The notes: generated from the sequence alone by a model not told the origin. A stretch of 22,204 nt of DNA from a virus (IMGVR_UViG_2703718843_000003:1-22204); one strand, 5' to 3'. Numbered from the stretch's first letter, positions 791 through 17,000 are shown. Numbers and translations: made by a program.

Positions 791-1279
791 TCAGAACAGG
801 CCCGACAGCTTACTACTGGCAGAGTTGTAGGCGGACGTGGCTTTATCCTTCAAGCCAGAAAGTAAATCGCCAACAGACGACGCTTGCAGACGCTCGCGTA
901 AATCTTCATCACAGCGCTGAAAGCTGATCGAAAACTCAATTTTTTTTGCCTTTCCGTAGCGGTCAAATTCCGTATGCGTGGCCTGTAGCCCAGTCAGCAC
1001 ATACATCCCGTAAATCTGCCCTGCACCGCTGATTAAAGGCCACGGACGCCCGGTGTATGCCTGCGTTGCCAGAACGGTAAGAGACACGTCGCCGCCCGTA
1101 ATCTCAGGGTAAAGCACCCCGTCAAGGTTGATCTGCGTTTCACCAGCGCCGATGTACTGCCATTTTGCCGATCGGTTGATGCGATCATTCTTCACATGAC
1201 GCCAGTTCAGCGAGTGGCGTAACTGCTGGTAAGGCAGTGTCTTCAGTTCAAAAACGAACATCCCGTATATCATCATCAT
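791..1279 (-). CDS. U: Phage tail protein gpU (P2 U homolog)
   Basis: 162-aa ORF directly downstream of the tape measure gene on the same strand; SD AGGGGAGG 7 nt upstream of ATG at 1279; sequence (WRHVKNDRINRS..WQYIGAGETQINLDGVLYPEITGG) matches my recollection of P2 gpU. Confidence 0.85.
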   Translation of the reverse strand: MMMIYGMFVFELKTLPYQQLRHSLNWRHVKNDRINRSAKWQYIGAGETQINLDGVLYPEITGGDVSLTVLATQAYTGRPWPLISGAGQIYGMYVLTGLQATHTEFDRYGKAKKIEFSISFQRCDEDLRERLQASSVGDLLSGLKDKATSAYNSASSKLSGLF

Positions 1280-1293
1280 AATGTTGCCTCCCC

Positions 1294-4200
1294 TTAATCT
1301 CTGTCTTTGAAGCTGCCGCGATTGAGTCGCGCAAGGCGGGCCATTTCGGCATTCACTGCGTCGGCGGCAATCCGGCCAATTTCGCGAGCGTCCTGCCGGT
1401 CAACGCCGTGGAGGTGTACGTGGATTTCCCCCGTAAAGCCGCCAGCGGCAACCGATGTATTGCTGGCGCTGCGACTGACTGGTAAAAGTTCAGCCTGTTT
1501 AACGGGAAGCGATGCCGCCACCACTGCGGGGCGTGCGCTTAACCCGTTGTTCCTGACCGTGCTGGCCAGTTGCGATTCCTTCCATTCCCCACGAACGGCC
1601 AGCGCACGCGGCAGGTTTTTAAACACGATATCGCCGGGGCCGATCTTCTTCGTGTTATCGGCTGTCGCTTTAGTGTTGCTGTCGATGCTTTGCAACCTGC
1701 GCATAGTGCCGTTATCGCCGGTCAGCGGTGATGTGGGTTGCGGTGCGCCAGGCGGAACGTTATTCACCTCAACTTTTTTCGGCGTAACCTTCGCGATATC
1801 TCCCTGAAGAAGGGCGACTTTGTCCTGAAGAACAGCCATGCGCTGTGCGTCTTCGATCTTCTTTCTGGCTTTTTCGGCCTCATCTGGCAGAACGCCGAGC
1901 TTTTCAAGGATCCAGGCTAATGTATCCAGCAGCATTTTTGCAGGCGTCAGAACAAGCTGGAGCGCACCACCAAGAACGTTACCGAATACCTCACCGGCGC
2001 TGGCGCACTTATCCAGTGTTTCCTTGCAGGACTCCATCGGGGAAAGCAGAGATTTGAACCAGTTAAAGGCCTGGCTGACAGCGCTGCCTATCGCGTCAAA
2101 GATGGGTCTGAACTGCGAGAAGGTGTCACGTAACGGGGCCAGTCTTTCCATGATGCCGGTGAATACGCCAGCAAAAAATGCTTTAAGAGGCTCCCAGTAA
2201 CGCCAGATAAGCACCCCGGCAGCAATAAACGCCGCCACTATCAGGCCAATCGGACTCAACAGCAGCGACAGCGCTGTACCCAGCATAGACACCGCCGCAG
2301 TGATCATGCTCCATATGGCCGGTAAACCTGTCAGGCGAAGGGCGAGCATACCGAGGTTTTTTGTCAGTGCTCCCAGCGCGGCACCAGGTGTAAGAAATAC
2401 CCCCATGAGTGCGCCGCGCATAGCGGGGATGATGGTTGAAATTCCGCGCATTTTTCCTGCTAACGAGCCGAGAACTGGCCCCCATCCGCGCACGCTTGCC
2501 ATTGCCGGGCCGGAAGCTGTGCCGAGTGTTCGCAGAGCGGCAATCGTTCCGGTTATGCCTCTGCCCCCTGTCAGCAGGGTAAAACTTAACTGAAGTTTAG
2601 CCAGTGGACCCATCAGCAGACCGATCGCCAGCGATGTGCCGCCAATGGCGGCGGTCAGTGCCAGAACGCTACCACCGACAACCAGCAGGGATTGTGCGAG
2701 CTTCGGATTCTCCTTAGCCCACTGCGTCATATTCCCCACAACGTCACTCAGTCCCTGAGTCAGGCCACGAAGCTGATTGTTGACGAGATCGTTAATCTGG
2801 ATGCGGAAGCCTTCCCAGGCGCTGTCCAGATTTTTGAGATCGCCATCAAGGTTATCCGCCATTATTTTGGCGGCTTTCTGCGCCTCACCTTTGGCGTTTT
2901 TCAGTTCACCCAGCAGCTTCTGAAGTTCACCGCTACCGGCTGACATAACCAGAGCCTGGAATGACTTTGACGCCTCTTCACCGGCAATATCTTTGAAGAA
3001 TGAGAGCTTATCGGTATCCCCGTACTTGCTGATCTTTTTATAGAGATCGGTTAGAACCACTTCAGCAGGGCGCATTTTCCCCGTTGCGTCAGCGACTTCT
3101 ACGCCCAATTCTTTAAGCGCGGTTTTTGCCCTGCCGGTTGGTGCGGCAAGGCGTGAAAATGTGGCCTGCAAACCCGTACCGGCGATACTCCCGCGCAGGC
3201 CTACGTTCGCCATCACGCCGATCATGGCCGTGGTCTGTTCGACGCTGACTCCAAGGTTGGAAAGACCTGTCCCGGCGTACTTCATCGCTTCACCGATATT
3301 TTGCAGATCGGTGTTGGTTCTGGTGAACGCGCCAGTTAATACGTCGCTGACGCGATCCATTTCTTTGGGGTCGAGACGGAACTGAGACAGGATGTTTGAG
3401 CTGATATCAGCGCTTTCACCTAAATCCATACCACCGGCCAGCGCCATATTGAGCACACCAGGCAGTGCGGCCTGAATGGCCTGCGGAGTGAAACCGGCCA
3501 TAGCGAGAAATGCCTGCCCACTGGCGGCGTCGGTCGTGGTGAACTGTGTTTCAGCACCCAGCTTTTTGGCCTGGTCACGAAGTGCTGAAAAGTCAACGGA
3601 GCTTTTATCTATGCGGGTCAGCGCCTGCACGCGGGACATTTCCCGATCAAACCCAACGGCGGGGGATAAGAACCGCCCCGCTACGTAACCGGCAGCAGTG
3701 GCCCCGGCAACGGCCATCGTGCCACCGCCGCGAAGTTTACCCGCTGTTTGCTGCATCTGGTCGTAGCGTGCGCGTGCCTGCGTGACAGCGGCAAGCTGTC
3801 GCCGTTCCCGCTCAAGCGTCTGGTTGTACTGTTCGGTTCGACGTATGGCACTCTGAATGGTGCGATCGCTTCCGACAAGTGAAACGCCGTGACTGCGCAG
3901 CGCCTGTGAGGCGGCGCGCAGCTTAACCATTTCCTGTGTGCGTGCAGAGTTAAGGCGCTCCAGCTTTGCGGCCAGCGCTGCCATATGTGCTTTTTGCTTG
4001 TCTGTAAGCTGTGTACCTTCCCGCTGCGCCTGATTCAGCCCTTCAAGCGTCCGGCTGGCGTCGTCAATTTTGCGGGAGGTCTTTTGCACGCTGTCGCGCA
4101 GACGGTTGAATGTGCGGGACTGACTGTCCAGATCTTTAATGCTGGACTGCGTTTTTTTGAGGGATTCAGACAAACCGCCCGCACTCTGGCGGGCGGCATT

Positions 4201-4296
4201 GACCGGGCGGGTAAGTTTATCGATCGCGCTGAACGCGACGCGGATATTAAGGCTTTTCACTGTCACTGGCTCCACTTCGGACAGCCGCCCGCTCAC
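1294..4296 (-). CDS. T: Tail tape measure protein gpT
   Basis: 1000-codon ORF; coiled-coil N-terminal third, Gly/Ala-rich hydrophobic central region, position between E/E' and U. The codon at 4296 is GTG, not ATG; alternative GTG starts at 4266 and 4260 (GGAG 9 nt upstream of the latter), so the 5' end is uncertain. Confidence 0.85.
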   Translation of the reverse strand: MSGRLSEVEPVTVKSLNIRVAFSAIDKLTRPVNAARQSAGGLSESLKKTQSSIKDLDSQSRTFNRLRDSVQKTSRKIDDASRTLEGLNQAQREGTQLTDKQKAHMAALAAKLERLNSARTQEMVKLRAASQALRSHGVSLVGSDRTIQSAIRRTEQYNQTLERERRQLAAVTQARARYDQMQQTAGKLRGGGTMAVAGATAAGYVAGRFLSPAVGFDREMSRVQALTRIDKSSVDFSALRDQAKKLGAETQFTTTDAASGQAFLAMAGFTPQAIQAALPGVLNMALAGGMDLGESADISSNILSQFRLDPKEMDRVSDVLTGAFTRTNTDLQNIGEAMKYAGTGLSNLGVSVEQTTAMIGVMANVGLRGSIAGTGLQATFSRLAAPTGRAKTALKELGVEVADATGKMRPAEVVLTDLYKKISKYGDTDKLSFFKDIAGEEASKSFQALVMSAGSGELQKLLGELKNAKGEAQKAAKIMADNLDGDLKNLDSAWEGFRIQINDLVNNQLRGLTQGLSDVVGNMTQWAKENPKLAQSLLVVGGSVLALTAAIGGTSLAIGLLMGPLAKLQLSFTLLTGGRGITGTIAALRTLGTASGPAMASVRGWGPVLGSLAGKMRGISTIIPAMRGALMGVFLTPGAALGALTKNLGMLALRLTGLPAIWSMITAAVSMLGTALSLLLSPIGLIVAAFIAAGVLIWRYWEPLKAFFAGVFTGIMERLAPLRDTFSQFRPIFDAIGSAVSQAFNWFKSLLSPMESCKETLDKCASAGEVFGNVLGGALQLVLTPAKMLLDTLAWILEKLGVLPDEAEKARKKIEDAQRMAVLQDKVALLQGDIAKVTPKKVEVNNVPPGAPQPTSPLTGDNGTMRRLQSIDSNTKATADNTKKIGPGDIVFKNLPRALAVRGEWKESQLASTVRNNGLSARPAVVAASLPVKQAELLPVSRSASNTSVAAGGFTGEIHVHLHGVDRQDAREIGRIAADAVNAEMARLARLNRGSFKDRD

Positions 4297-4725
4297 GCCA
4301 GGCTATGACTTCGCCCAGTTCCATCGTGAAGACTTCAGAGGGCGGCCAGTTGAAAACAACCGCGATATCAGCGACCAGATCGTCGATCAGGTCGAACCGC
4401 AGGAGTGTTACTGATTCTCCGTCTCCGCCTCGCTCGACGCTCCAGACCCCGCAGGTGTCAAAAAAGGGACGAGCGCTTCAGACAGGCTGACAAAATCGCG
4501 CGTATCCATTTCGTTGATTTCGGTCTGTTTGAGGCGTGGTGACGTGACACGGGTCAGCAGTACCGCCACCGAATCCACATCCATATTCATCACGTTGACC
4601 AGCTTCAGACCGCGCAGGGAGCCAGCCTGTTTGATCTCATCCGTGATCGTTACCTGAGTAATTTTCTCATCGCCGCGAACAACGGGTTTTGCCAGAGTAA
4701 TGGCGTTATCGTTTTTTTTGCTCAT
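4247..4725 (-). CDS. E': gpE+E' fusion made by programmed -1 ribosomal frameshift
   Basis: After a -1 slip at T TTT TTG (+ strand 4459-4465) the reading frame stays open for about 70 codons (DTCGVWSVERGG...WPPSEVFTMELGEVIAWRERAAVRSGASDSEKP) and ends at TAA 4247-4249, overlapping the start of T. Hand-translated from the sequence. Confidence 0.6.
4408..4725 (-). CDS. E: Tail assembly chaperone gpE (zero-frame product)
   Basis: Starts MSKKNDNAITLAKPVV with GGAG 11 nt upstream of ATG at 4725; upstream of T on the same strand as in P2; contains the slippery site near its 3' end. Confidence 0.8.
   Translation of the reverse strand: MSKKNDNAITLAKPVVRGDEKITQVTITDEIKQAGSLRGLKLVNVMNMDVDSVAVLLTRVTSPRLKQTEINEMDTRDFVSLSEALVPFLTPAGSGASSEAETENQ
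4459..4465 (-). other. Slippery heptamer T-TTT-TTG for the E to E' -1 frameshift
   Basis: Minus-strand CCC TTT TTT GAC in the gpE frame; the canonical X XXY YYZ heptamer used by P2-like and lambda-like tail chaperone pairs. Confidence 0.6.
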
Positions 4726-4773
4726 TGTTGAATGCTCCGGGCGGCAAGGCTGTGCCGCCACTTATCAGGTTAA

Positions 4774-5289
4774 TCAGTTACCCATTCCCAGCGCAGACGT
4801 GATGCGGTCAGGGTAGATATTTTTGCCGTCTTTCTTGTAGATGAAGTTCAGAAGATCAAACTCAAACAGCGGCTTATCGTCGATGGTGAGTTTGTAATAA
4901 GTGTTCTTCATCGTGTAGCTGACGGAGGTGTCTTCTCCCTGCTTGCTTTCGCCGCCGTCCATTTCGGTGATGCGGCCGCGCAGTTCGACCTCAACCAGCA
5001 GGCTTTCACCATCGGTGTAATACTCCCCGGCGAAGCGGAAACGGGTTTCGTCGATATCGCCGCAGTAGTTCAGCAGTAACGACTGAACCAGACCGCCAAC
5101 CACCATCGTGGTATCCAGCGCGCCACTGTCCAGACCGAGATCCACCGCAGCGGAGCCAATCATCCCGCCCCCCTGAAAATCTTCAGTTTTACGGGTCAGT
5201 TTTGGCAGCGTCACGGAAGAGACTTTGCCGATGCAGTTGCTGCCGTTCACAAAGCAGGTGAACAGGCGTAGTTTGTGAGGAACCGCCAT
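4774..5289 (-). CDS. FII: Tail tube protein gpFII
   Basis: 171-aa ORF immediately downstream of the sheath gene (FI stop and FII ATG adjacent at 5290/5289); size and position match P2 FII. Confidence 0.9.
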   Translation of the reverse strand: MAVPHKLRLFTCFVNGSNCIGKVSSVTLPKLTRKTEDFQGGGMIGSAAVDLGLDSGALDTTMVVGGLVQSLLLNYCGDIDETRFRFAGEYYTDGESLLVEVELRGRITEMDGGESKQGEDTSVSYTMKNTYYKLTIDDKPLFEFDLLNFIYKKDGKNIYPDRITSALGMGN

Positions 5290-6471
5290 TTATGCACCTC
5301 CCAGGGAAGAAAACGCCGATTCGAAATACTCGTCCGTGAAGGTCTGGTAGAGCGTAAGATCTTCCATTGGCGGAACCGGTGTATATTTATAGCGAATGCG
5401 CACCTGACCCTGACGGAGACCGGTTGTCGGGTTATCCAGGATATCAAACCAGCATTCAGCACCAATCAGCCGCCCCTGCGTCACCAGCGAATTGAGTTTG
5501 CCGCTGATGCCGCTGACCACGTCCTTGACGTTGGCCGGGGTTAGCGGTTCGTCCACTGATTCAAATTGCGCCTCAGCGATACTGTCAGCCAGAATCTGTG
5601 CCGTACGGGTGTAAACCTCAAAAATATAATCTTTGGTGTCCGTAACGCGGTTGCCCCAGAACCGGAAACCATTACGCTTGATGAGCGTCGTGATCTCCTT
5701 GTTGTTGAGTTCGTTCGCGTCGCTGTCTTCGGCCTGAAGCGACCAGAAAACATCCTGCGAAATACCCAGCACGTTGCTTACCGACACATTGGAAAGCGAT
5801 TTGTGCCAGCCCTGATTGTTGTCAATCAGCGCGCGAAGGCCGCAGGCATAGGCCGGGGCCGGGAAGGTTTCGTTCTCTCCGGTCAGCGGGTTGTAGGCGA
5901 TGAAATCAGGCCAGATAAGCATTAGCTCGCGATAGGCGAAGGTCGCACGATATGCGGTAGCTTCAGCCATCGTTTTGCAGCCGTAGCAACTGGCGTAAAC
6001 AAACGCGCGCAAATTCTGAGCAATCACACACAACGCAGAAGTGACTTCTTCCGTGTCGTAGCCCGGCACGGCCAGAATGCGTGGACGATAACCAACCTTC
6101 TGCTCGGCAGTCAGAAACGCGTACATGCCGGTATAGCTGCCGTCTTCTGCCGTGCCACCCATGATGAGCTGCGACTGCGTTTTACCGCCTTCCTCTTCCG
6201 TGGCTGCTGCCACGCGCACAACGATAACCTTCGGACTGGTCTGGTCAGCGATGGCTTTAAGCGTTTTGTACAGGGAGCCGGTTTTACCCGCCTTATCCAG
6301 CACGTTGTTAACCCGCGTCAGCAACACGGGGGTATTCAGGGGAAAGGTTTCCGCATCGGCATCATCCGCCACGGCAACGACCCCAATGACACTTGATTCA
6401 ATGTCATTGATGGCCGTCACCAGGTCGGTATTCTCCCGGACGCGTACACCGTGGAAACGTGTCTCTGACAT
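5290..6471 (-). CDS. FI: Contractile tail sheath protein gpFI
   Basis: Start chosen at ATG 6471 (MSETRFHGVRV...), preceded by GGTGG, matching the remembered P2 FI N-terminus MSDYHHGVQV; conserved C-terminal region (GFRFWGNR...YKYTPVPPMEDLT). The track ORF start at 6516 is an upstream extension. Confidence 0.9.
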   Translation of the reverse strand: MSETRFHGVRVRENTDLVTAINDIESSVIGVVAVADDADAETFPLNTPVLLTRVNNVLDKAGKTGSLYKTLKAIADQTSPKVIVVRVAAATEEEGGKTQSQLIMGGTAEDGSYTGMYAFLTAEQKVGYRPRILAVPGYDTEEVTSALCVIAQNLRAFVYASCYGCKTMAEATAYRATFAYRELMLIWPDFIAYNPLTGENETFPAPAYACGLRALIDNNQGWHKSLSNVSVSNVLGISQDVFWSLQAEDSDANELNNKEITTLIKRNGFRFWGNRVTDTKDYIFEVYTRTAQILADSIAEAQFESVDEPLTPANVKDVVSGISGKLNSLVTQGRLIGAECWFDILDNPTTGLRQGQVRIRYKYTPVPPMEDLTLYQTFTDEYFESAFSSLGGA

Positions 6472-6624
6472 GTTAGCCACCATTACGTTATTGAGTTCGC
6501 AGTGATAATCCCTCATGTTGGAATGTCACTCACGCTATTGCGGGTCTGGCCGGACGGCGACAACAAAAACCGATTTGGTGTCTCCCGCGCGCGTGGGATC
6601 CTTCGCCGGAAGAAGGGGGAAAGC

Positions 6625-7761
6625 ATGGCACTTACAGACCTGACAAAATCACTTAACGACGCCATCAGCACTTATAACGATTCACTGACCGAGGCGGTAA
6701 AAAGTCCGGGATTCAGCATAACGATGGGCGGTAAGGTACGGACGCAGCTTGACGAGCGGATCATGTCGTTGTCACTGACGGACAACCGGGGTTTTGATGC
6801 CGATCAGCTTTCCATTTCTATTGATGACAGTGACGGTATGGTTGCTCTGCCTCCGCGTGGCGCTGAGCTTGCGGTATCAATTGGCTGGCTGGGTGAGCCG
6901 CTGATTTACAAGGGACTGTACACGGTTGATGAGGTATCCCATGAAGGGCCGGGTGATATCATTGGTATTACTGCCCGCAGCGCTGATTTTCGTGAAGAGT
7001 TCAACGTAAAGCGCGAAGTCTCATGGCATGACGTGACCGTTGAGCGCGTTGTGTCGGCCATAGCGCACCGCTACGGTCTGAAAGCGCAGATCAGTGAAAT
7101 GCTCATGGATATTGAGATTGATCACGCTGACCAGACGCAGGAAAGCGATATGTCATTCCTTACCCGCATGGCGGAAATGCTGGGCGCAATTGCCACCGTA
7201 AAGAACGGCAGTCTGCTGTTTATCCTGCCGGGCGGAGGTGTTACCGCTGACGGGAAGGCGCTCCCCTCTGCCAGTATTAACCGGACGAGCGGCGATCGGC
7301 ACCGCTTTCGTATTGCCGATCGGGATGCGTATACCGGCGTCAGGGCTTACTGGCTGGATCTCAATTTTGGCAAAAAGAAAAAGGTCAGTGTTAAGCGCCG
7401 TAAGCCAGCAAAGCCCAAAAAAGAGAAGAGCAGCAGCCGTGAGGGCGATTACATGGAGGGCGCTGACGGTAACGTCTATGTGCTGCGCAAAACCTACCAG
7501 AATGAAGAGGCGGCGAAACGTGCTGCGGCGGCAAAATGGCAACAGCTTCAGCGTGGTGCGGCAGAGTTTTCGATCACCCTGGCGCGTGGCCGCGCTGAGC
7601 TTTACCCCGAAATGCATGTCACGGTTAGCGGTTTTAAGGATGAAATAGACAATCAGGACTGGATTATTGCGCGTGCTGAGCACGTCATAGACGACAGCGG
7701 TTTTACCACCCGGCTGGAGCTGGAAGCAAAAATACCTGACTGGATAGCGGAAACTGAATAA
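6625..7761 (+). CDS. D: Tail protein gpD (late control gene D family)
   Basis: ATG at 6625 with AAGGGGGA SD; sequence (SLTDNRGFDADQL..SWHDVTV..DRHRFRIADRDAYTGV..KWQQLQRGAAEFSI) matches my recollection of P2 gpD including the basic lysine-rich linker. Confidence 0.9.
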   Translation: MALTDLTKSLNDAISTYNDSLTEAVKSPGFSITMGGKVRTQLDERIMSLSLTDNRGFDADQLSISIDDSDGMVALPPRGAELAVSIGWLGEPLIYKGLYTVDEVSHEGPGDIIGITARSADFREEFNVKREVSWHDVTVERVVSAIAHRYGLKAQISEMLMDIEIDHADQTQESDMSFLTRMAEMLGAIATVKNGSLLFILPGGGVTADGKALPSASINRTSGDRHRFRIADRDAYTGVRAYWLDLNFGKKKKVSVKRRKPAKPKKEKSSSREGDYMEGADGNVYVLRKTYQNEEAAKRAAAAKWQQLQRGAAEFSITLARGRAELYPEMHVTVSGFKDEIDNQDWIIARAEHVIDDSGFTTRLELEAKIPDWIAETE

Positions 7762-7800
7762 AATGAAATGGAGTTCAACTCCCACAGGGGAGCCATCATT

Positions 7801-8049
7801 ATGTTCAGATGTCCATTTTGCGGCGCTATGGCCCGCACCCGTACCAGCCGTAAAATAACCGATATGACTATCCGGCAATATCACCAGTGTCAGAATCTGG
7901 AATGTAGCCGGTCATTCACCACGCTAAACAGCGTGGAAAGGGAAGTAACAAAGCGTGCAGGCACTGCACCGTTACCGCCTGACTTTATCCCCCGCGATGC
8001 TTTCCCGGCATCACATTACGGCAGAGACCAGCTTAATCTGGCTCTCTGA
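7801..8049 (+). CDS. ogr: Ogr/Delta-family zinc-finger late transcription activator
   Basis: MFRCPFCGAMARTRTSRKITDMTIRQYHQCQNLECSRSF carries the C-x2-C...C-x4-C finger and closely resembles remembered P2 Ogr; GGGGAG SD 8 nt upstream of ATG 7801; directly follows D as in P2. Confidence 0.85.
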   Translation: MFRCPFCGAMARTRTSRKITDMTIRQYHQCQNLECSRSFTTLNSVEREVTKRAGTAPLPPDFIPRDAFPASHYGRDQLNLAL

Positions 8050-8174
8050 CCACTGTCAAAGTGCCCCCGTAAATCCATTCAGTGCGGGGGCAACTTCAAG
8101 CAAAACGCTTTTTCCAGAGAAAATATCTTTGATAACATCGGTCAGCATATTAATAGCGATGATGGGATAGGGAT

Positions 8175-8558
8175 ATGAAAAAGGTGTTGTTAATACTGGC
8201 TTTGGTTTCTCTTGTTGGATGCAAGCCCAGCGCTGAAAAAGCTGTTGAACTAGGTAAGTCAGAAGTTGCAGCAGATGTTAGGGATCCAGATAGCGTAAAA
8301 TTTAGATATCTTCGATTTGTTCAGGGTGAGGATTCACCTGATGGTGCGGTCACTGGCTATGTTTGCGGTCAGATCAATGCGAAAAATGGCTTTGGGGCTT
8401 ACGAAGGATTCTCTCCATTCCTTATGAAAATAAGCATGAAATCAAAGGGTACATTTTCCAAGGGGGTCACCTACTCTGTAACGGAGAAGAAAATCTACAC
8501 CCGGTTTAGTGACCCAGTACCAGCGTCATACAAAGACAAGTGCGGCCCTGATGAGTGA
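8175..8558 (+). CDS. Secreted lipoprotein (cargo/moron gene), function unknown
   Basis: N-terminal signal peptide MKKVLLILALVSLVG followed by lipobox Cys (LVGC, Cys16) and K at +2; lower GC than flanking core genes; followed by a strong intrinsic terminator. Sits between ogr and the att region, where P2 itself has no gene as far as I recall. Confidence 0.75.
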   Translation: MKKVLLILALVSLVGCKPSAEKAVELGKSEVAADVRDPDSVKFRYLRFVQGEDSPDGAVTGYVCGQINAKNGFGAYEGFSPFLMKISMKSKGTFSKGVTYSVTEKKIYTRFSDPVPASYKDKCGPDE

Positions 8559-8576
8559 GGGATGTTTCAGTAAGAT

Positions 8577-8600
8577 GCCGGGCAGAAGCCCGGCTTTTTT
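8577..8600 (+). terminator. Rho-independent terminator after the lipoprotein gene
   Basis: GCCGGGC-AGAA-GCCCGGC perfect 7-bp stem followed by TTTTTT. Confidence 0.7.
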
Positions 8601-8693
8601 ATGTCGAAGTGTAGTCAAAATGTAGACGAAGTTTAGAATAAATCCTTTTATTCCAGTTTGTTACATGCGGAATATCTTCACCATCCCTGTCTT

Positions 8694-8720
8694 CCCCCAC
8701 ATGATGTGGGGGTTTTTTTT
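8694..8720 (+). terminator. Second hairpin plus T8 tract inside the att region
   Basis: CCCCCAC-ATGAT-GTGGGGG followed by TTTTTTTT; may be the reconstituted terminator of the host gene the phage integrates next to, or part of the attP core. Confidence 0.55.
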
Positions 8721-8732
8721 ATCAATCACTTA
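8720..8732. promoter_or_regulatory. IHF-consensus site (WATCAANNNNTTR) in the att region
   Basis: TATCAATCACTTA matches the IHF consensus exactly; located between the hairpin and the Int arm-type repeats. Confidence 0.35.
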
Positions 8733-8805
8733 CATCGGTTTCCGTAAGAAAACAGTAACTTAAGAAAACCTATAAGGGACTGGAAGGGCTACAAAGTTCT
8801 GAGAG

Positions 8806-8826
8806 TGTGGACACTATGTGGACACT
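8806..8826. repeat. Tandem direct repeat TGTGGACACT x2 (putative Int arm-type P' sites)
   Basis: Perfect 10-bp tandem copies separated by 1 bp, 12 bp from the int stop codon; matches the P2 Int arm-site consensus TGTGGACA as I remember it. Degenerate copies (GTGTAGTC, TGTAGACG) occur at 8609-8628 on the other side. Confidence 0.5.
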
Positions 8827-8838
8827 CAGAAGGGAAAT

Positions 8839-9819
8839 TTATAACGTCACTCCGCCTTTTAGAGGATTCAGCGCGACGGCATTTTGCAGGTAGTCAGGCG
8901 CAAGGTGCGCATAGGCCATCGTCTGCTGAATGCTCGCATGTCCCAGAATCTGTTGCAGTGCGATTATATTGCCCCCATTCATCATGAAATGGCTTGCGAA
9001 TGTATGCCGCAGGATGTGGGTTGCCTGATTGGGTGGTATATCTGGCTTCACTCTGCGTAAAATCCCGCAAAACTTCTCATAATCAACTTTGAATAATTTA
9101 GCGCTGGCCTCCTCTTTAACTTTTTTCTCCAGTTCCTCAGAAATCGGCACGGTTCGCTTTTTACCGTTTTTGGTTTTCAGGAAGGTAACCCTGCAATTTG
9201 TAATCTGTGCTGGTTTTAGCGTGGCAACTTCCGTCCATCTTCCTCCAGTGCTCAGACATAAAAGTGCGACAAGTAAGTCATCACCATCCAAAACATTTAA
9301 CAGTTTTTCGATTTCTGCCTTTTCCAGGAACGTCATTTCAGGGTTGGCCTCCGCCAGTGGCGGCAGTCCGTGAATTGGGTGTTGCCCGGAAAATTCATCC
9401 AATTGAATTAATTTTGTGAACATGCCGGATAATCGGTACATGTCACGGTTTATCGTTGCGGCACTGATACCATTTCGTAGTCGCATGGAACGATAATCCA
9501 TCAAAGCTCTTTTGCTCATCCGGCTCACTGGTATATCACCTATGCCGCTGATGGTTTTGAGCAGATGATTAAACTCTTTTGTTCCATGCTCGTGGTTTTG
9601 CCCGTGATATTTCCACCAGATGTCCAGCAACTCACTCAAAGTTCTGCGATCTGCTCGCTGACCTGCCCATTCTTTCTGGCTGGCGTAGGCGATTGTGTAT
9701 CGCTCAAATGCTACAGCCTCAGCTTTTCTTTCAAATTTCCTGCGGATGCGTTTTCCGTCGCGACCGCGAGGTCTAATGTCCACTTCATAGCGTCCATCAT
9801 CGAGCTTCTTAATTGACAT
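8839..9819 (-). CDS. int: Tyrosine integrase (P2 Int family)
   Basis: Start MSIKKLDDGRYEVDIRPRGRDG matches the remembered P2 Int N-terminus; C-terminal catalytic region with HxLRHT (ATHILRHTFASH) and the conserved Tyr context (MAYAHLAP). Confidence 0.9.
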   Translation of the reverse strand: MSIKKLDDGRYEVDIRPRGRDGKRIRRKFERKAEAVAFERYTIAYASQKEWAGQRADRRTLSELLDIWWKYHGQNHEHGTKEFNHLLKTISGIGDIPVSRMSKRALMDYRSMRLRNGISAATINRDMYRLSGMFTKLIQLDEFSGQHPIHGLPPLAEANPEMTFLEKAEIEKLLNVLDGDDLLVALLCLSTGGRWTEVATLKPAQITNCRVTFLKTKNGKKRTVPISEELEKKVKEEASAKLFKVDYEKFCGILRRVKPDIPPNQATHILRHTFASHFMMNGGNIIALQQILGHASIQQTMAYAHLAPDYLQNAVALNPLKGGVTL

Positions 9820-12091: not shown

Positions 12092-12363
12092 GTATTCGTA
12101 TCGAAATTGGCGAACGTTATGTCGTTACCAGTGACAGCTTTCAGTTTATTCTCCACGAGAAAAAGAGAGCGGAAAGCGGTAAAAACGCCGGTCAGGAGTG
12201 GCTGGCGGTGGTTGGTTATTACCCGAAATTAAGCCAGCTCGTTTCCGGCCTGATGCATCACGATATTCTGACCGGAAGCGCAAAGTCTTTTGCTGATTTA
12301 AACGCGCAGGTTGAGCAACTCAGCAAGCGTTGTTCAGAGGCTTTTGGCTCATATGACCGTTAA
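12088..12363 (+). CDS. Hypothetical protein (P2 orf83 position)
   Basis: 91-aa ORF overlapping the start of gene A. Confidence 0.5.
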   Translation: MSIRIEIGERYVVTSDSFQFILHEKKRAESGKNAGQEWLAVVGYYPKLSQLVSGLMHHDILTGSAKSFADLNAQVEQLSKRCSEAFGSYDR

Positions 12364-14629
12364 AGCCTCCGGGCATTTTGTCCCTCCGTCAGCATTTGCC
12401 GCAGGCACCGGTGAGACGTTTACCGGTGCTTATGCATGGAACGCGCCACGCGAGGCCGTCGGGCGCGAAAGACCCCTTACACGTGACGAGATGCGTCAGG
12501 TGCAAGGTGTTTTATCCACGATTAACCGCCTGCCTTACTTTTTGCGCTCGCTGTTTACTTCACGCTATGACTACATCCGGCGCAATAAAAGCCCGGTACA
12601 CGGGTTTTATTTCCTCACATCCACTTTTCAGCGTCGTTTATGGCCGCGCATTGAGCGCGTGAATCAGCGCCATGAAATGAACACCGACGCGTCGTTGCTG
12701 TTTCTGGCAGAGCGTGACCACTATGCGCGTCTGCCGGGGATGAATGACAAGGAGCTGAAAAAGTTTGCCGCCCGTATTTCATCGCAGCTTTTCATGATGT
12801 ATGAGGAACTCTGCGATGCCTGGGTGGATGCGCATGGCGAAAAAGAATCACTGTTTACGGATGAGGCGCAGGATCATCTGTATGGTCATGTTGCTGGCGC
12901 TGCACGTGCTTTCAATATTTCCCCGCTCTACTGGAAAAAATACCGTAAAGGACAGATAACCACGAGGCAGGCATATTCTGCCATTGCCCGCCTGTTTAAC
13001 GATGAGTGGTGGACTCATCAGCTTAAAGGCCAGCGTATGCGCTGGCATGAAGCGTTACTGATAGCTGTCGGGGAGGTCAATAAAGACCGTTCTCCTTATG
13101 CCAGTAAACATGCCATTCGTGATGTGCGTGCGCGCCGCCAGGCAAATCTGGAATTTCTTAAATCGTGTGACCTTGAAAACAGGGAAACCGGCGAGCGCAT
13201 CGACCTTATCAGTAAGGTGATGAGCAGTATTTCTAATCCTGAAATTCGCCGGATGGAGCTGATGAACACCATTGCCGGTATTGAGCGTTACGCCGCTGCA
13301 GAGGGTGATGTGGGGATGTTTATCACGCTGACCGCGCCGTCAAAGTATCACCCGACACGTCAGGTCGGAAAAGGCGAAAGTAAAACCGTCCAGCTTAATC
13401 ACGGCTGGAATGATGAGGCATTTAATCCAAAGGATGCGCAGCGATATCTCTGCCATATCTGGAGCCTGATGCGCACGGCATTCAAGGATAATGATTTACA
13501 GGTCTACGGTTTGCGAGTCGTCGAGCCACACCACGACGGAACGCCGCACTGGCATATGATGCTTTTTTGTAATCCACGCCAGCGTAACCAGATTATCGAA
13601 ATCATGCGTCGCTATGCGCTCAAAGAGGATGGCGACGAAAGAGGAGCCGCGCGAAACCGTTTTCAGGCAAAACACCTTAACCGGGGCGGTGCTGCGGGGT
13701 ATATCGCGAAATACATCTCAAAAAATATCGACGGCTATGCACTGGATGGTCAGCTCGATAACGATACCGGCAGACCGCTGAAAGACACTGCCGCGGCTGT
13801 TACCGCATGGGCGTCAACGTGGCGCATTCCGCAATTTAAAACGGTTGGCCTGCCGACAATGGGGGCTTACCGTGAACTACGCAAATTGCCTCGCGGCGTC
13901 AGCATTGCTGATGAGTTTGACGAACGCGTCGAGGCTGCACGCGCTGCCGCAGACAGTGGCGATTTTGCGCTGTATATCAGCGCGCAAGGTGGGGCAAATG
14001 TCCCGCGCGATTGTCAGACTGTCAGGGTTGCCCGTAGCCCGTCGGATGACGTTAACGAGTATGAGGAAGAAGTCGAGAGAGTGGTCGGCATTTACGCGCC
14101 TCATCTCGGCGCGCGTCATATTCATATCACCAGAACGACGGACTGGCGCATTGTGCCGAAAGTGCCAGTCGTTGAGCCTTTGACTTTAAAAAGCGGCATC
14201 GCCGCGCCTCGGAGTCCTGTCAATAACTGTGGAAAGCTCACCGGTGGTGATACTTCGTTACCGGCTCCCACACCTTCTGAACACGCCGCAGCAGTGCTTA
14301 ATCTGGTTGATGACGGTGTTATCGAATGGAATGACCCGGAGGTCGTGAGGGCGCTCAGGGGCGCATTAAAATACGGGCTGAGAACACCAAATCGTCAGCA
14401 GAGAAACGGAAGCCCGTTAAAACCACATGAAATTGCACCATCGGCCAGACTGACCCGGTCGGAAAGAATGCAAATTACCCGTATCCGCGTTGACCTTGCT
14501 CAGAACGGTATCAGGCCGCAGCGATGGGAGCTTGAGGCGCTGGCGCGTGGCGCGACCGTAAATTATGACGGGAAACCTTTCACTTATCAGGTCGCTGATG
14601 ATTGGCCGGGATTTTTGTTACCCATTTGA
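12353..14629 (+). CDS. A: Replication initiation endonuclease gpA (rolling-circle nickase)
   Basis: Start MTVKASGHFVPPSAFAAGTGETFTGAYAWNAPREAVGRERPLTRDEMRQ is near-identical to the remembered P2 gpA; contains the HUH-like GTPHWHMMLF region and the active-site Tyr region AGYIAKYISKNIDGYAL. Confidence 0.9.
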   Translation: MTVKASGHFVPPSAFAAGTGETFTGAYAWNAPREAVGRERPLTRDEMRQVQGVLSTINRLPYFLRSLFTSRYDYIRRNKSPVHGFYFLTSTFQRRLWPRIERVNQRHEMNTDASLLFLAERDHYARLPGMNDKELKKFAARISSQLFMMYEELCDAWVDAHGEKESLFTDEAQDHLYGHVAGAARAFNISPLYWKKYRKGQITTRQAYSAIARLFNDEWWTHQLKGQRMRWHEALLIAVGEVNKDRSPYASKHAIRDVRARRQANLEFLKSCDLENRETGERIDLISKVMSSISNPEIRRMELMNTIAGIERYAAAEGDVGMFITLTAPSKYHPTRQVGKGESKTVQLNHGWNDEAFNPKDAQRYLCHIWSLMRTAFKDNDLQVYGLRVVEPHHDGTPHWHMMLFCNPRQRNQIIEIMRRYALKEDGDERGAARNRFQAKHLNRGGAAGYIAKYISKNIDGYALDGQLDNDTGRPLKDTAAAVTAWASTWRIPQFKTVGLPTMGAYRELRKLPRGVSIADEFDERVEAARAAADSGDFALYISAQGGANVPRDCQTVRVARSPSDDVNEYEEEVERVVGIYAPHLGARHIHITRTTDWRIVPKVPVVEPLTLKSGIAAPRSPVNNCGKLTGGDTSLPAPTPSEHAAAVLNLVDDGVIEWNDPEVVRALRGALKYGLRTPNRQQRNGSPLKPHEIAPSARLTRSERMQITRIRVDLAQNGIRPQRWELEALARGATVNYDGKPFTYQVADDWPGFLLPI

Positions 14630-14814
14630 GTAAAAATACAGCGTGATTTTATATGTCTTTGAATGGATTATGCGAAGCACCTCTAAGGTAGATGAGGAGC
14701 AATAGTGTGTTGAATCAGAAGGCTAAATTGTATTGAATCGTTAGCATGTAATTGAAGGCAGCTATTTGATTCGAGTCATAAAAGAGCATCTATTTCGGTT
14801 AATAAAACCATTGC

Positions 14815-14860
14815 GAGTGACTTTATGTCGAAGCATAATTCATCTCGAGCGAAGTCTTGC
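14815..14860. repeat. Direct repeat copy 1 (GAGTGACT ... GAGCGAAGTCTTGC)
   Basis: Shares an 8-mer and a perfect 14-mer with copy 2 at 15100-15124; copy 1 has a 24-bp internal expansion. Confidence 0.45.
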
Positions 14861-14889
14861 TAGTCTTTCATCGGATTGATGACGGGCGC

Positions 14890-14919
14890 AAAAAAACCAC
14901 CCTGGCAGGTGGTTTTTTT
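14890..14919. terminator. Bidirectional rho-independent terminator (A7-CCACC..GGTGG-T7)
   Basis: Symmetric hairpin flanked by an A run and a T run; closes the replication operon on + and the small minus-strand ORF on -. Confidence 0.65.
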
Positions 14920-14931
14920 GTTTGAAGCATA

Positions 14932-15045
14932 CTAAAGAAAAATACTTACATGGATATTACTGACGTTTACTGACAAACCACTCGGACTACCATATGGATA
15001 GCCAAAGAGGGCCAGAACGAGAATGCAGTAATAGCACTTCTTCAT
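14932..15045 (-). CDS. Candidate 37-codon mini-gene encoding a small hydrophobic Cys-containing peptide
   Basis: Minus-strand AGGAGG SD 4 nt before ATG (15045); peptide MKKCYYCILVLALFGYPYGSPSGLSVNVSNIHVSIFL; stop TAG at 14932-14934 followed 13 nt later by the bidirectional terminator. Not in the ORF track (below its length cutoff). Coding status unproven. Confidence 0.3.
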   Translation of the reverse strand: MKKCYYCILVLALFGYPYGSPSGLSVNVSNIHVSIFL

Positions 15046-15099
15046 ATCGCCTCCTGTAAGCAGAGGGCAATTTCCGCCGATATATGCGCTTCTAAGGCG

Positions 15100-15124
15100 G
15101 AGTGACTATTGAGCGAAGTCTTGC
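15100..15124. repeat. Direct repeat copy 2 (GAGTGACTATTGAGCGAAGTCTTGC)
   Basis: See copy 1; the two copies bracket the terminator and the mini-ORF. Confidence 0.45.
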
Positions 15125-15701
15125 CCTGAAATAATGCTCTGTTTAAACGCAAAGTGATCTGGCATATCACTGAACAGAGAACCTGAACAACACAACATAT
15201 AGTATGTCGTTGTTTCTGGTTGCATTTTATGTTGTGTAATACTGGTTTTGCATCAAGGATGTTTGAGCTTTTTTTGATATAGCTCAAAGTAAAAAGCAGA
15301 GACTACGGATGATAAGGTCTTGAAAGCAATGTAAATTTTTTAAAGTTGTGAGTGGCTAGAAATGCACAGTTTCAATATGGCGGATTTAAACAAGTAATTA
15401 AAAATAGCGCCATAAATTCCAATAAAATCATTATGTTGCGTTTTCTGTGGAAACTGCGGTGACTCTGAAATTTTCTTTTAGTGTCGCTGAGGTTTAACAA
15501 CTCGCTGCGCAAGTAGTTAGTGTTTTTTTAACTCAATATCCTGATTTATAAGGTTTTTTATAAATCGTTGGCTGATTGCGCGTATTCATCTCGTGTTATC
15601 AGCAAAGATAAGCGCTATATGCAAAACTGAATGCATATATGATGTCGAAAATGTTATGGGAAAACGTGGATTAGTGTTATAGTAATGGCTGAAAAACAGC
15701 A

Positions 15702-15740
15702 TTGACATAAAATAACAACTGTGATATGGCTGTGCATACT
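15702..15740 (+). promoter_or_regulatory. Putative sigma70 promoter for the peptidase/membrane-protein pair
   Basis: TTGACA at 15702-15707; weak -10 candidates TATGGC (17-bp spacer, TG at -15/-14) or CATACT; about 30-60 bp upstream of a strong AGGAGG SD. Confidence 0.35.
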
Positions 15741-15766
15741 TAACTTTTTTAACGTAGGAGGCAACC

Positions 15767-16252
15767 ATGAGCTATGCAGCTAAAAAACTGCTTGACCGCT
15801 ATTGGGATCGCCGACTACCTGTCGATCCGTTTAAGCTTGCTAAAGCGTGGGGTGCTCGTGTTGAAGCACTTGAGGAATCGGCTTATAACAACGATGGGTT
15901 AAGCGGTCTGGCTGTCATCAAAAAGGGTGTCCATAGGATTTATTTTGATTCTAGTGAACATTCTAATCGTCAACGTTTTACTGTTGCACACGAGTTAGGT
16001 CATCATGTGCTGGGGCATACCCAGGACGGAGAGTACCATCGGGATAATGTCGGGAATTATTCAACAGGTGCTCGTGATTACCGTGAGGTTGAAGCAAACA
16101 AGTTTGCTGCTGAGTTGTTAATGCCTGAGTCTGCTATACGTCAATTGGTATCCAGAGAAGGTATTGATAGCACTTTGAGATTAGCAAGCATCTTTAATGT
16201 ATCAGAAGCCGCTATGCATTGGCGCTTAAAGAGCTTAGGAATGGCTTATTAA
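15767..16252 (+). CDS. ImmA/IrrE-family (M78-like) zinc metallopeptidase, orphan (no adjacent HTH partner)
   Basis: HEXXH motif H75-E-L-G-H79 followed by the family signature E107-V-E-A-N-K-F-A-A-E-L-L-M-P; ideal SD AGGAGG 5 nt upstream of ATG; AT-rich codon usage. Confidence 0.8.
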   Translation: MSYAAKKLLDRYWDRRLPVDPFKLAKAWGARVEALEESAYNNDGLSGLAVIKKGVHRIYFDSSEHSNRQRFTVAHELGHHVLGHTQDGEYHRDNVGNYSTGARDYREVEANKFAAELLMPESAIRQLVSREGIDSTLRLASIFNVSEAAMHWRLKSLGMAY

Positions 16253-16278
16253 TTAGCCTTTAACTTTTAACCTGTTTA

Positions 16279-16318
16279 AAATCACCTTTACGTTTGTACA
16301 TGTAAGGGTGATTTTTTT
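16279..16318 (+). terminator. Intergenic hairpin plus T7 tract (terminator/attenuator) that also contains the only SD-like sequence for the downstream gene
   Basis: AAATCACC (16279-16286) pairs with GGTGATTT (16307-16314), 20-nt loop, T run 16312-16318 ending at the ATG of the membrane-protein ORF; AAGGGTG in the 3' arm lies 8 nt before that ATG. Confidence 0.45.
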
Positions 16319-16918
16319 ATGGCTGATATTGATTTATCTGGACAGTCCCCAGAGCAAGGAACCACTCCTAAGGGCGATTTAGATCCTGATATCCTTATAA
16401 GGCGAGATCGACGCGATGGTATAGAGCGTAGAAGTATGCGATTAGTGCTCTCTGCCGTTGTGCTTTGTTTTGCTTGTACATTTCTATGGCAGGGGCTTAA
16501 CTTTGCTTTGGCTGTTGGAAATGGCTTGCTGGAAGCGAAAAGCAGTATTGCCACAGCGATAACACAAAAAGTAGATGCACAAACTTGTGTTTCAGCAGAA
16601 AAATGTTCTGCTTTATCTGCGGATCCGAAGATGGCTGATGAGAGGATAACACCATCTTCAGACACTAATAAAGTTAGAAAATCTATTTCTGGTTTATCCA
16701 CCGATTGGTTATCGGCCAGTTCTCTAATAGCTATTGTTGCATTCATCCTTGGTGTGGGTTTAACTTTGCTTTTGACTCTTCTTAAATCAGCATTTCAACA
16801 CCCGACAGATAAAGACTTTAGAACAAAGTCGACATCTAATACTATTGAGTTGGCCACGCCAATCAGTGAATTAATAATTGGTGTTCTGAATATAATTAAA
16901 GACAAACTATCTAAGTAA
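16319..16918 (+). CDS. Membrane protein with two predicted TM helices and a soluble N-terminal Arg/Asp-rich region
   Basis: Hydrophobic stretches RLVLSAVVLCFACTFLWQGLNFALAVG and LIAIVAFILGVGLTLLLTLL; no recognisable catalytic motif; 5' end uncertain (alternative Met at 16436). Confidence 0.65.
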   Translation: MADIDLSGQSPEQGTTPKGDLDPDILIRRDRRDGIERRSMRLVLSAVVLCFACTFLWQGLNFALAVGNGLLEAKSSIATAITQKVDAQTCVSAEKCSALSADPKMADERITPSSDTNKVRKSISGLSTDWLSASSLIAIVAFILGVGLTLLLTLLKSAFQHPTDKDFRTKSTSNTIELATPISELIIGVLNIIKDKLSK

Positions 16919-16994: not shown

Positions 16995-17000
16995 GTCGTT

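What the first reader, a model, noticed from the sequence alone, without database searches (positions are those of the whole stretch)
8175..8558. Lipoprotein cargo gene inserted between ogr and the att site
A 127-aa protein with a textbook lipoprotein signal peptide and lipobox (LVGC), lower GC than the surrounding late genes, and its own terminator occupies a slot that I recall as gene-free in P2. Small phage-encoded lipoproteins in temperate phages often act as superinfection-exclusion factors that block outer-membrane receptors (as T5 Llp and phi80 Cor do for FhuA), so this is a candidate lysogenic-conversion gene.
Basis: partly seen in the sequence, partly recalled or inferred. Interest (0 to 1): 0.6.

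Follow-up and report, generated by a model that had tools for sequence, protein, structure and literature searches.

The report
Uncharacterised lipoprotein cargo gene beside attP
A P2-like temperate phage carries, between its last late gene and its integration site, a self-contained add-on gene for a small outer-membrane lipoprotein of an unstudied family that in other phages sits among the tail genes, where known genes that block infection by rival phages lie; its function is untested.

Summary
Window 8175-8558(+) is a real 127-aa gene under purifying selection (dN/dS 0.07-0.17). It has a canonical lipobox (LVGC, Cys16), lower GC than the late genes (44% vs 54%) and its own intrinsic terminator. 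It lies in a 541-bp cassette (8051-8591) between ogr and attP. That slot is gene-free in P2 and Wphi. In close relatives it is empty or holds other cargo.

The protein is not a homologue of Cor, Llp, HK97 gp15 or any defence family. It has no Pfam, NCBIfam or PADLOC hit and belongs to PHROG 2320 (function unknown). The AlphaFold model is a generic cystatin/NTF2-like alpha+beta roll with no specific structural relative.

New here: of the 80 closest viral-contig homologues, 16 sit in this ogr-att slot. Another 58 sit directly upstream of the tape-measure gene of siphoviruses, the slot of the HK97 gp15 exclusion moron. These copies are also low in GC, and the two checked end in a terminator.

Best reading: a prophage-expressed outer-membrane lipoprotein acting at the envelope, most likely in superinfection exclusion (about 45%). 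It is a new member of a known kind, of moderate interest.

The parts
6625..7761 (+). gpD (phage late control D / tail protein), the backbone gene upstream of the cassette
   Evidence: ORF. Homologous loci carry a 378-aa protein with PF05954 Phage_GPD in the same place.
7801..8049 (+). ogr (82-aa Ogr/Delta zinc-finger late activator); its stop codon is the left edge of the variable slot
   Evidence: ORF, with the start at the internal Met matching the 249-nt ogr CDS of L003. PF04606 Ogr_Delta is called in homologous loci. Similarity to phiT5282H ends at 8050.
8051..8591 (.). Variable cargo cassette (541 bp) between ogr and the attP arm
   Evidence: blastn breakpoints against phiT5282H (metallophosphoesterase cargo) and E. 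coli XYEH3783 (empty slot) fall at 8030/8050 and 8592.
8059..8096 (+). GC-rich hairpin just after ogr with no U-tract: a weak or leaky terminator at best
   Evidence: RNA fold; the sequence is. It was not reported as a terminator. In Klebsiella and Yokenella relatives a true ogr terminator occupies this place.
8164..8174 (+). Purine-rich Shine-Dalgarno-like stretch (GGGATAGGGAT), conserved in form among P2-type homologues
   Evidence: Sequence; upstream alignment.
8175..8558 (+). 127-aa lipoprotein gene (PHROG 2320). Signal peptide at 8175-8219, lipobox Cys16 codon at 8220-8222, mature domain residues 17-127 with conserved Cys64 and Cys123
8577..8600 (+). Intrinsic terminator of the lipoprotein gene (GCCGGGC-AGAA-GCCCGGC plus T6)
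8592..8662 (+). attP P-arm region (Int arm and IHF-site equivalent), the right backbone flank of the cassette
   Evidence: 76% identity to the P2 segment that carries the annotated Int P-arm and IHF sites. Conserved in the empty-slot and other-cargo relatives.
8679..8723 (+). attP core region, including the hairpin CCCCCACATGATGTGGGGG plus T8 (8694-8712). Prophage copies end at about 8723, next to fieF
   Evidence: This is the overlap between the prophage-end match (to 8723) and the Wphi int-side match (from 8679).
8839..9819 (-). Integrase, Wphi type (3' end 100% identical to Wphi int)

Best explanation
The gene is a moron: an autonomous cargo cassette in the ogr-attP slot of a P2-like temperate phage.

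Inferred biogenesis: its product is exported by Sec, lipidated at Cys16 and cleaved by signal peptidase II. Because residue +2 is Lys rather than Asp, it is sorted by Lol to the inner leaflet of the outer membrane. Only about 3-4 tether residues precede the first helix of a compact cystatin/NTF2-like domain, which is probably disulfide-locked (Cys64-Cys123). The domain should therefore sit against the periplasmic face of the outer membrane.

Inferred function: from that position it most likely protects the lysogen, and late-infected cells, against superinfecting phages. It could lock or mask an outer-membrane component from the periplasmic side, as Llp and Cor do. Or it could obstruct the incoming tail tip or tape-measure protein as it crosses the envelope, in the logic of HK97 gp15 and Ltp.

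What is shown: the gene is real and under selection, it has moron anatomy, it is variably present, and its family recurs in tail-module moron slots.

What is inferred: lipidation, outer-membrane sorting, expression from the prophage, and the exclusion function.
For: - Real gene: dN/dS 0.07-0.17.
- Lipoprotein features are conserved: G15, C16, K17 and P18 invariant.
- Model: mean pLDDT 83, helix 20-32 followed by a 4-strand sheet.
- Moron anatomy: lower GC and its own terminator. The Klebsiella and Yokenella copies have an ogr terminator followed by a 10/12 sigma-70 promoter-like site, TTGAGA-N16/17-GATAAT.
- All 79 evaluable viral homologue loci have the gene at lower GC than their flanks, mean -8.3 points.
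- Variable slot content on the same backbone: lipoprotein, metallophosphoesterase, a 230-aa membrane protein, or empty.
- Position: 58 of the 80 closest viral homologues lie directly upstream of the tape-measure gene, in most of them just after the chaperone gene. Both loci scanned (L060, L045) have a terminator after the gene. This is the slot of HK97 gp15, a proven prophage-expressed exclusion protein (PMC3594210). Others lie in the K-I moron slot.
- Precedents: phage lipoproteins encoded inside structural clusters exclude phages when expressed (PMC11893012). T5 Llp acts on FhuA from the periplasmic side (PMC9586334).
- In a P2-like Salmonella prophage, ogr is transcribed in all conditions tested (PMC7067206). 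Here no U-tract terminator separates ogr from the gene.
Against: - No homology to any characterised exclusion or defence protein: PADLOC none, Cor aligns over the signal peptide only, gp15 does not align.
- No sigma-70 promoter-like site lies upstream of the gene in this window.
- The domain belongs to a superfamily of more than 6,000 50%-identity clusters. Many of the more distant genome loci show no nearby tail or tape-measure gene, by a crude test, and some superfamily members are fused to SPOR or SH3 cell-wall-binding domains. Its near-invariant motif (DPxS...CGxxNxKNxxGxYxG) suggests a conserved host ligand rather than an arms-race interface.
- Selection is purifying, not diversifying.
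- P2-type phages use LPS rather than a protein receptor (my own knowledge).
Confidence: 0.45

Rival explanations
1. Host-fitness or virulence conversion factor. The outer-membrane lipoprotein changes envelope properties for the benefit of the lysogen (serum or complement resistance as with lambda Bor, stress tolerance, adhesion or biofilm) without affecting phages.
For: It has the same moron anatomy and att-proximal position as classical conversion genes. The exact protein, and 90%-identity cluster members, are recorded in E. coli, Enterobacter, Citrobacter, Kosakonia and Salmonella houtenae. Related domains are common in chromosomal envelope proteins. The conserved motif suggests a host ligand.
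Against: No similarity to Bor/Iss, TraT, Lom or any virulence family. The strong association of the closest relatives with tail and tape-measure slots in unrelated phages is not expected for a pure host-fitness gene.
Confidence: 0.2
2. Periplasmic inhibitor or immunity protein. The cystatin-like domain binds and neutralises a periplasm-acting enzyme. Candidates are a tail-associated or tape-measure-borne peptidoglycan hydrolase (logic of T4 Spackle), or a toxin delivered by competitors (type VI amidase, colicin, tailocin).
For: The fold class is that of cystatin, latexin and PepSY-type inhibitors. Superfamily members are fused to SPOR or SH3 peptidoglycan-binding domains. Homologues sit next to tape-measure genes or the NlpC/P60-type tail protein K. 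Other cargo found just after ogr in relatives includes a WapI-like immunity protein and a VasI-like type VI protein, although the att site was not located in those loci.
Against: Fold matches are weak (Z no higher than 7.6) and equally include NTF2 and VirB8 proteins that are not inhibitors. No partner is identified. The very short tether places the domain at the outer membrane, away from the peptidoglycan layer (inference).
Confidence: 0.15
3. Lytic-cycle helper of the phage itself. It is expressed late by read-through from D-ogr and serves lysis timing, envelope remodelling or virion release, not the lysogen.
For: It is co-directional with D-ogr, with no U-tract terminator between them in this window. 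In siphoviruses it is embedded in the late tail operon.
Against: It is dispensable: the slot is empty or holds other cargo in close relatives. It has its own promoter-like site in other lineages and its own terminator. It is unlike spanins in size and sequence (Rz-like PHROG E = 0.18, N-terminus only).
Confidence: 0.08

Closest known systems
HK97 gp15 moron (superinfection exclusion; YebO-related inner-membrane protein)
   Same: Both are self-contained, low-GC cassettes with their own terminator. [quoted passage not shown] Both are envelope-located products.
   Different: There is no sequence relationship. gp15 is a 62-aa inner-membrane protein without a lipobox. The window protein is a 127-aa predicted outer-membrane lipoprotein with a folded domain.
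Cor (phi80/N15/HK022) and Llp (T5) outer-membrane lipoproteins that inactivate FhuA
   Same: All are small phage-encoded lipoproteins encoded beside tail genes or near att. HK022 cor lies between J and int. All are predicted to act from the periplasmic face of the outer membrane.
   Different: Only the signal peptide aligns with Cor. No Llp-like sequence or fold match was found. The mature domain is larger, about 110 aa, against roughly 60 aa for Cor and Llp (my own knowledge). No receptor is known.
Ltp of Streptococcus thermophilus phage TP-J34 (lipoprotein that blocks DNA injection via the tape-measure protein)
   Same: It is a prophage-expressed surface lipoprotein acting after adsorption. 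The link to the tape-measure protein (PMC3952083) parallels the tape-measure adjacency of this family.
   Different: Ltp is from a Gram-positive host, has a different fold (helix-turn-helix-like repeats, my own knowledge) and is encoded in the lysogeny module. No homology was detected.
mEpimmI phage Lpp exclusion lipoproteins (mEp021 gp81, mEp010 gp116)
   Same: They are lipobox proteins encoded within the structural gene cluster of temperate coliphages, shown by expression to exclude phages that use the same receptor (PMC11893012).
   Different: Not detectably homologous: a tblastn of the window protein against 50,697 phage records found only 9 records, none of them mEp phages.
PHROG 2320 and its superfamily (PHROGs 36625, 20234, 35207, 16400); the DPxS...CGxxNxKNxxGxYxG module
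   Same: This is the family the protein actually belongs to (E = 1.4e-31). It shares the helix plus beta-sheet module with more than 6,000 protein clusters.
   Different: No member of the family has a known function, and no Pfam model covers it.

Membership tests
Bacterial lipoprotein (Lgt/LspA substrate) | N-terminal signal peptide ending in a lipobox [LVI][ASTVI][GAS]C, with basic n-region and uncharged h-region | tested here: met
   MKKVLLILALVSLVG|C. G15 and C16 are invariant in 26 homologues. A lipobox is present in 108 of 149 distant relatives.
Bacterial lipoprotein (Lgt/LspA substrate) | Actual lipidation and signal peptidase II cleavage; outer-membrane sorting (no Asp at +2) | not testable with these tools
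   Residue +2 is Lys, invariant in the family. Sorting is inferred from the +2 rule (my own knowledge). It needs globomycin or palmitate labelling and fractionation.
Moron (as defined by Juhala et al. 2000; quoted in PMC3594210) | An extra gene, absent from related genomes, between conserved genes | tested here: met
   P2 and Wphi have no gene here. The slot is empty in E. coli XYEH3783 and holds other cargo in phiT5282H, L188 and L199.
Moron (as defined by Juhala et al. 2000; quoted in PMC3594210) | GC content different from the surrounding genes | tested here: met
   0.443 against 0.52-0.54 for ogr, gpD and sheath. The same holds in 79 of 79 homologous viral loci. The int/C side is equally low.
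Moron (as defined by Juhala et al. 2000; quoted in PMC3594210) | Own terminator | tested here: met
   8577-8594 plus T6. A terminator also follows the siphovirus copies.
Moron (as defined by Juhala et al. 2000; quoted in PMC3594210) | Own promoter and expression from the repressed prophage | tested here: inconclusive
   No promoter-like site lies upstream in the window. A 10/12 site is conserved in the Klebsiella and Yokenella copies. Read-through from ogr is possible (PMC7067206). No transcript data are available.
Cor superinfection exclusion protein (PHROG 1119) | Sequence homology of the mature protein to Cor | tested here: not met
   PHROG 1119 scores E = 0.061 over residues 1-21 only. hhalign against HK022 Cor aligns 22 columns, all signal peptide.
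T5 Llp | Sequence or fold similarity to Llp; binding to the periplasmic face of FhuA | tested here: not met
HK97 gp15 / YebO family | Sequence homology; single-pass inner-membrane protein | tested here: not met
   hhalign probability 0.2%. Only the genomic slot is shared, and only by the siphovirus homologues.
Known anti-phage defence systems (PADLOC-DB 2.0) | Match to any defence protein model | tested here: not met
   0 families at E up to 1.
PHROG 2320 (phage protein family of unknown function) | Profile match over most of the protein | tested here: met
   E = 1.4e-31, residues 1-113 against profile positions 20-138 of 171.
Cystatin / NTF2-like alpha+beta roll fold | An N-terminal helix packed on a curved 4-stranded antiparallel sheet | tested here: met

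The most novel reading that the evidence does not exclude
PHROG 2320 and its close relatives could be a new, widespread class of superinfection-exclusion lipoproteins of enterobacterial temperate phages. They travel with tail modules: the chaperone-to-tape-measure slot in siphoviruses, the K-I slot in lambdoids, and the gpD/ogr-att slot in P2-like myoviruses. They would act from the inner face of the outer membrane through a conserved binding module (DPxS...CGxxNxKNxxGxYxG). That module is shared by more than 6,000 clusters of proteobacterial envelope proteins and has no Pfam model. On this reading they target a conserved host envelope component that many tailed phages need for genome delivery.
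Probability: 0.25. Interest if true: 0.6.

Novelty: new member of a known kind. Interest (0 to 1): 0.38.

Why it matters
If the exclusion role is confirmed, it would give a function to a large phage and bacterial envelope-protein family that currently has none. It would add the ogr-attP junction to the P2 cargo hotspots; the 2026 survey that was read lists GpA-GpQ, int-att, int-primase and tail-internal hotspots, and no passage naming this junction was seen in the parts read. The unusually conserved motif could also point to a host envelope factor that diverse phages need for DNA entry. Practically, such a gene could limit the host range of therapeutic phages in E. coli, Enterobacter, Klebsiella and Salmonella lysogens. 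If the gene has no phage phenotype, it is one more hypothetical prophage lipoprotein.

Tried and rejected
- Pfam, NCBIfam and PADLOC scans of the protein gave nothing.
- A profile search of all PDB sequences returned only signal-peptide or noise matches.
- A Pfam scan of 143 superfamily members found no model covering the conserved module, only C-terminal SPOR or SH3 add-ons in a few.
- The 230-aa protein that replaces the lipoprotein in some relatives has a DPSS...GANSYGA stretch, so I suspected it shares the domain. hhalign does not support this (12 columns, probability 8%), and the idea was dropped.
- The promoter scan of the window found no site upstream of the gene. Manual inspection found a TTGATA -35-like hexamer, shared by five of the eleven aligned upstream regions, but no convincing -10.
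- Rfam scan of 7900-8900 gave only sub-threshold terminator-like hits, and no tRNA is present.
- Literature searches found no study of this family.
- Technical caveat: the Ogr reference used was cut one base out of frame (ogr is 7801-8049). The 'noOgrHit' labels there are therefore meaningless. The context classification rests on gpD matches and on the Pfam Ogr_Delta calls.
- A spanin (Rz1-like) reading was rejected on size, fold and location.
- A chance ORF was rejected on dN/dS and conservation.

Full report
**1. What is in the sequence**

Window 8175-8558 (+) is an ATG-to-TGA ORF of 127 codons with no alternative upstream start. Upstream lie gpD (6625-7761) and ogr (7801-8049). Downstream lie an intrinsic terminator (stem 8577-8594, seven G-C pairs, then T6) and the attP region. 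Then come a Wphi-type integrase (8839-9819, minus strand), the C repressor and cox. This is the ogr-attP-int junction of a P2-like phage in its unintegrated configuration.

The N-terminus MKKVLLILALVSLVG|C is a canonical lipoprotein signal peptide. G15, C16, K17 and P18 are invariant in 26 homologues.

GC is 0.443 (GC3 0.406), against 0.52-0.54 (GC3 0.52-0.64) for ogr, gpD and the sheath gene. The int/C/cox side is equally low.

dN/dS against homologues at 81-98% protein identity is 0.07-0.17. This is a functional gene, not a chance ORF.

**2. The slot**

In P2 the ogr terminator is followed within 5 bp by the annotated Int P-arm, IHF site and attP core. Wphi also has no gene there.

blastn breakpoints define a 541-bp cassette, 8051-8591. 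It contains a GC-rich hairpin without a U-tract (8059-8096), an intergenic stretch, the gene and its terminator. The breakpoints come from three comparisons:
- Enterobacter phage phiT5282H, which carries a metallophosphoesterase on the opposite strand.
- An E. coli prophage with an empty slot.
- Prophages with the lipoprotein.

Prophage copies end at about 8723 and abut fieF.

The gene is variably present:
- Only 2 of 5,426 complete E. coli genomes carry it here. Others with the same D-ogr backbone have the phosphoesterase or nothing.
- Among 41 IMG/VR phages with gpD at least 87% identical, 9 have the lipoprotein and 1 has the phosphoesterase. Three have a 230-aa zinc-ribbon membrane protein; in L188 this lies before the same P-arm and att core, and in L199 before the same P-arm. 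Several have other cargo, and at least 12 end just after ogr.

The same gene family occupies the same slot in P2-like prophages that use other att sites. Examples are Klebsiella next to yccJ/wrbA, and Enterobacter hormaechei. It is also present in Salmonella phages SEN4 and SEN5.

**3. What the protein is**

There is no Pfam, NCBIfam or PADLOC hit. It belongs to PHROG 2320, function unknown (E = 1.4e-31). The Cor and Rz-like PHROGs match only the signal peptide at non-significant E-values.

The exact sequence is already in public databases from E. coli, and members of its 90%-identity cluster come from Enterobacter and Citrobacter. Close relatives occur in Kosakonia and Salmonella houtenae. 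All are named 'hypothetical protein' or 'Lipoprotein'.

An AlphaFold2 model built on 26 sequences has mean pLDDT 83. After the lipobox Cys, a tether of about 3-4 residues is followed by:
- helix 20-32;
- four antiparallel strands;
- a short C-terminal helix.

Conserved Cys64 and Cys123 probably form a disulfide, which fits a periplasmic protein.

A full HMMER profile search of 1.8 billion representatives found 6,424 clusters at E up to 1e-3, but only 5 at E up to 1e-30. The protein is therefore a phage-borne branch of a very large superfamily. The listed members are mostly about 100-150 aa, and most carry a lipobox or a membrane anchor. They share residues 20-90 (DPxS.kF ... vCGxvNaKNsfGaYxGf). 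A few add C-terminal SPOR or SH3 cell-wall-binding domains. No Pfam model covers the shared module.

**4. Context elsewhere: the most informative result**

The 80 best homologues in IMG/VR (45-96% identity) fall as follows:

| Position | Number of loci |
|---|---|
| Slot after gpD/ogr in P2-like phages | 16 |
| Directly upstream of a long tape-measure ORF in siphoviruses | 58 |
| Between the lambda K and I homologues | 1 |
| Truncated or unclear | 5 |

In many of the siphovirus loci the gene starts about 100 nt after the tail assembly chaperone gene.

More distant relatives also sit in the K-I slot: coliphage Fraca, Pseudomonas phage AUS531phi (a SPOR fusion), and Kluyvera and Enterobacter prophages.

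The chaperone-to-tape-measure slot is where HK97 carries gp15. That was the first described moron, and it is a prophage-expressed superinfection-exclusion protein (PMC3594210). The K-I slot is an annotated moron slot in HK022.

The two siphovirus copies that were scanned are each followed by their own terminator in the short gap before the tape-measure gene. In all 79 evaluable loci the gene has lower GC than its 2-kb flanks, by a mean of 8.3 points.

In the Klebsiella and Yokenella P2-type copies, a true ogr terminator is followed by a conserved 10/12 sigma-70 promoter-like site, TTGAGA-N16/17-GATAAT, about 35 nt before the start codon. In the window's own lineage no such site is found and the post-ogr hairpin lacks a U-tract. 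Expression may therefore depend on read-through from ogr. In a P2-like Salmonella prophage, ogr was reported transcribed under all conditions tested (PMC7067206). Expression of this gene itself has not been shown.

**5. Most likely mechanism**

Shown:
- It is a selected, mobile, self-contained cargo gene.
- It encodes a protein with a conserved lipobox.
- Its family recurs in tail-module moron slots of unrelated temperate phages.

Inferred:
- Lipidation and Lol-dependent sorting to the outer membrane (Lys at +2).
- A folded domain held against the periplasmic face of the outer membrane by a very short tether.
- A role in blocking superinfecting phages.

Two routes for blocking remain open. One is locking an outer-membrane component from inside, as Llp does with FhuA (PMC9586334). 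The other is obstructing the tail tip or tape-measure protein during envelope crossing, in the logic of gp15 and Ltp (PMC3594210, PMC3952083). A precedent is the mEpimmI coliphages, where lipoproteins encoded inside structural clusters exclude phages when expressed (PMC11893012).

I put superinfection exclusion at about 0.45.

Against it:
- There is no homology to any known exclusion or defence protein.
- Selection is purifying rather than diversifying.
- The near-invariant motif is shared with thousands of bacterial proteins, many with no detectable phage tail genes nearby. That suggests a conserved host ligand.
- P2-type phages adsorb to LPS, not a protein receptor (my own knowledge).

Rivals:
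- A host-fitness or virulence factor, Bor-like (0.2).
- A periplasmic inhibitor or immunity protein, suggested by the cystatin-like fold, the SPOR/SH3 fusions, and the immunity-like alternative cargo in the slot (0.15).
- A lytic-cycle helper (0.08).

**6. Comparison with the known, and verdict**

The protein may work like Cor, Llp, gp15 or Ltp, but it is a member of none of them; each membership test failed. It meets most criteria of a moron, with the promoter criterion inconclusive, and it is a member of the uncharacterised PHROG 2320.

A 2026 survey of P2 defence hotspots names the GpA-GpQ, int-att, int-primase and tail-internal sites. No passage naming the ogr-att junction was seen in the parts read (PMC13586616).

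This is a new member of a known kind, a phage moron lipoprotein. The added value is a clear, testable positional pattern across phage types. It is of moderate interest; the function remains to be shown experimentally.

Noticed in passing
window 14630-18368 (between gpA 12311-14629 and the portal-side genes from 18368): This is the classical P2 GpA-GpQ cargo hotspot. It holds a 161-aa Peptidase_M78/ImmA-IrrE protein (15767-16252, PADLOC capP E = 1.1e-30) and a divergent 60-aa ORF (15586-15768). Two further ORFs have no Pfam or PADLOC hit: 16288-16746 (minus strand, 152 aa) and 17001-17942 (minus strand, 313 aa). This may be an uncharacterised defence cargo under CapP-like control.
   Followed up: partly
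window 8679-8723; L003 and L004: The attP core contains a perfect terminator hairpin (CCCCCACATGATGTGGGGG plus T8). Prophages of this att type sit immediately upstream of fieF. In E. coli K-12 the gene upstream of fieF is cpxP (my own knowledge). The phage therefore probably integrates into, and regenerates, the cpxP / CpxQ-sRNA terminator. Rfam gave only sub-threshold hits.
   Followed up: partly
L186, L188, L199 (about 4957-5649, minus strand); L002 2963-3760; L181 5033-6260; L220 5006-5425: Other cargo sits just after ogr in close relatives. These are a 230-aa zinc-ribbon plus transmembrane protein and a 265-aa calcineurin-like phosphoesterase. There is also a 112-aa zinc-ribbon membrane protein paired with a 294-aa VasI-like secreted protein, and a WapI-like immunity protein. 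Several of these are envelope or immunity-type proteins. For the L181 and L220 groups the att site was not located, so they could lie outside the phage.
   Followed up: partly
window 791-6516 (minus strand) versus 6625-8049 (plus strand): The tail genes (sheath, tube, tape measure and neighbouring ORFs) lie on the opposite strand, divergent from D-ogr. In P2, U and D run in the same direction and, from my own knowledge, F1 through D form one co-directional block. The arrangement matches phiT5282H (Novemvirus), SEN4/5 (Senquatrovirus) and the Klebsiella and Enterobacter prophages.
   Followed up: no
superfamily of the protein (P0026-P0174; loci L105-L180): A module of about 70 residues (helix, DPxS.kF, vCGxvNaKNsfGaYxGf) defines more than 6,000 clusters at 50% identity. 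The listed members come from Proteobacteria, mostly as lipoproteins or membrane-anchored proteins, and some are fused to SPOR or SH3. No Pfam model covers it.
   Followed up: partly
L005-L008 6001-6450 (P0011) and P0010, P0016, P0018: Gene calls for several homologues are 141-158 aa because the start was placed upstream. In L005 the called start (6001) lies before the predicted promoter (6005-6032). The conserved MK(K/R) start gives 127 aa, so these are probably mis-annotated starts.
   Followed up: no
This is probably an annotation error.
   Followed up: no
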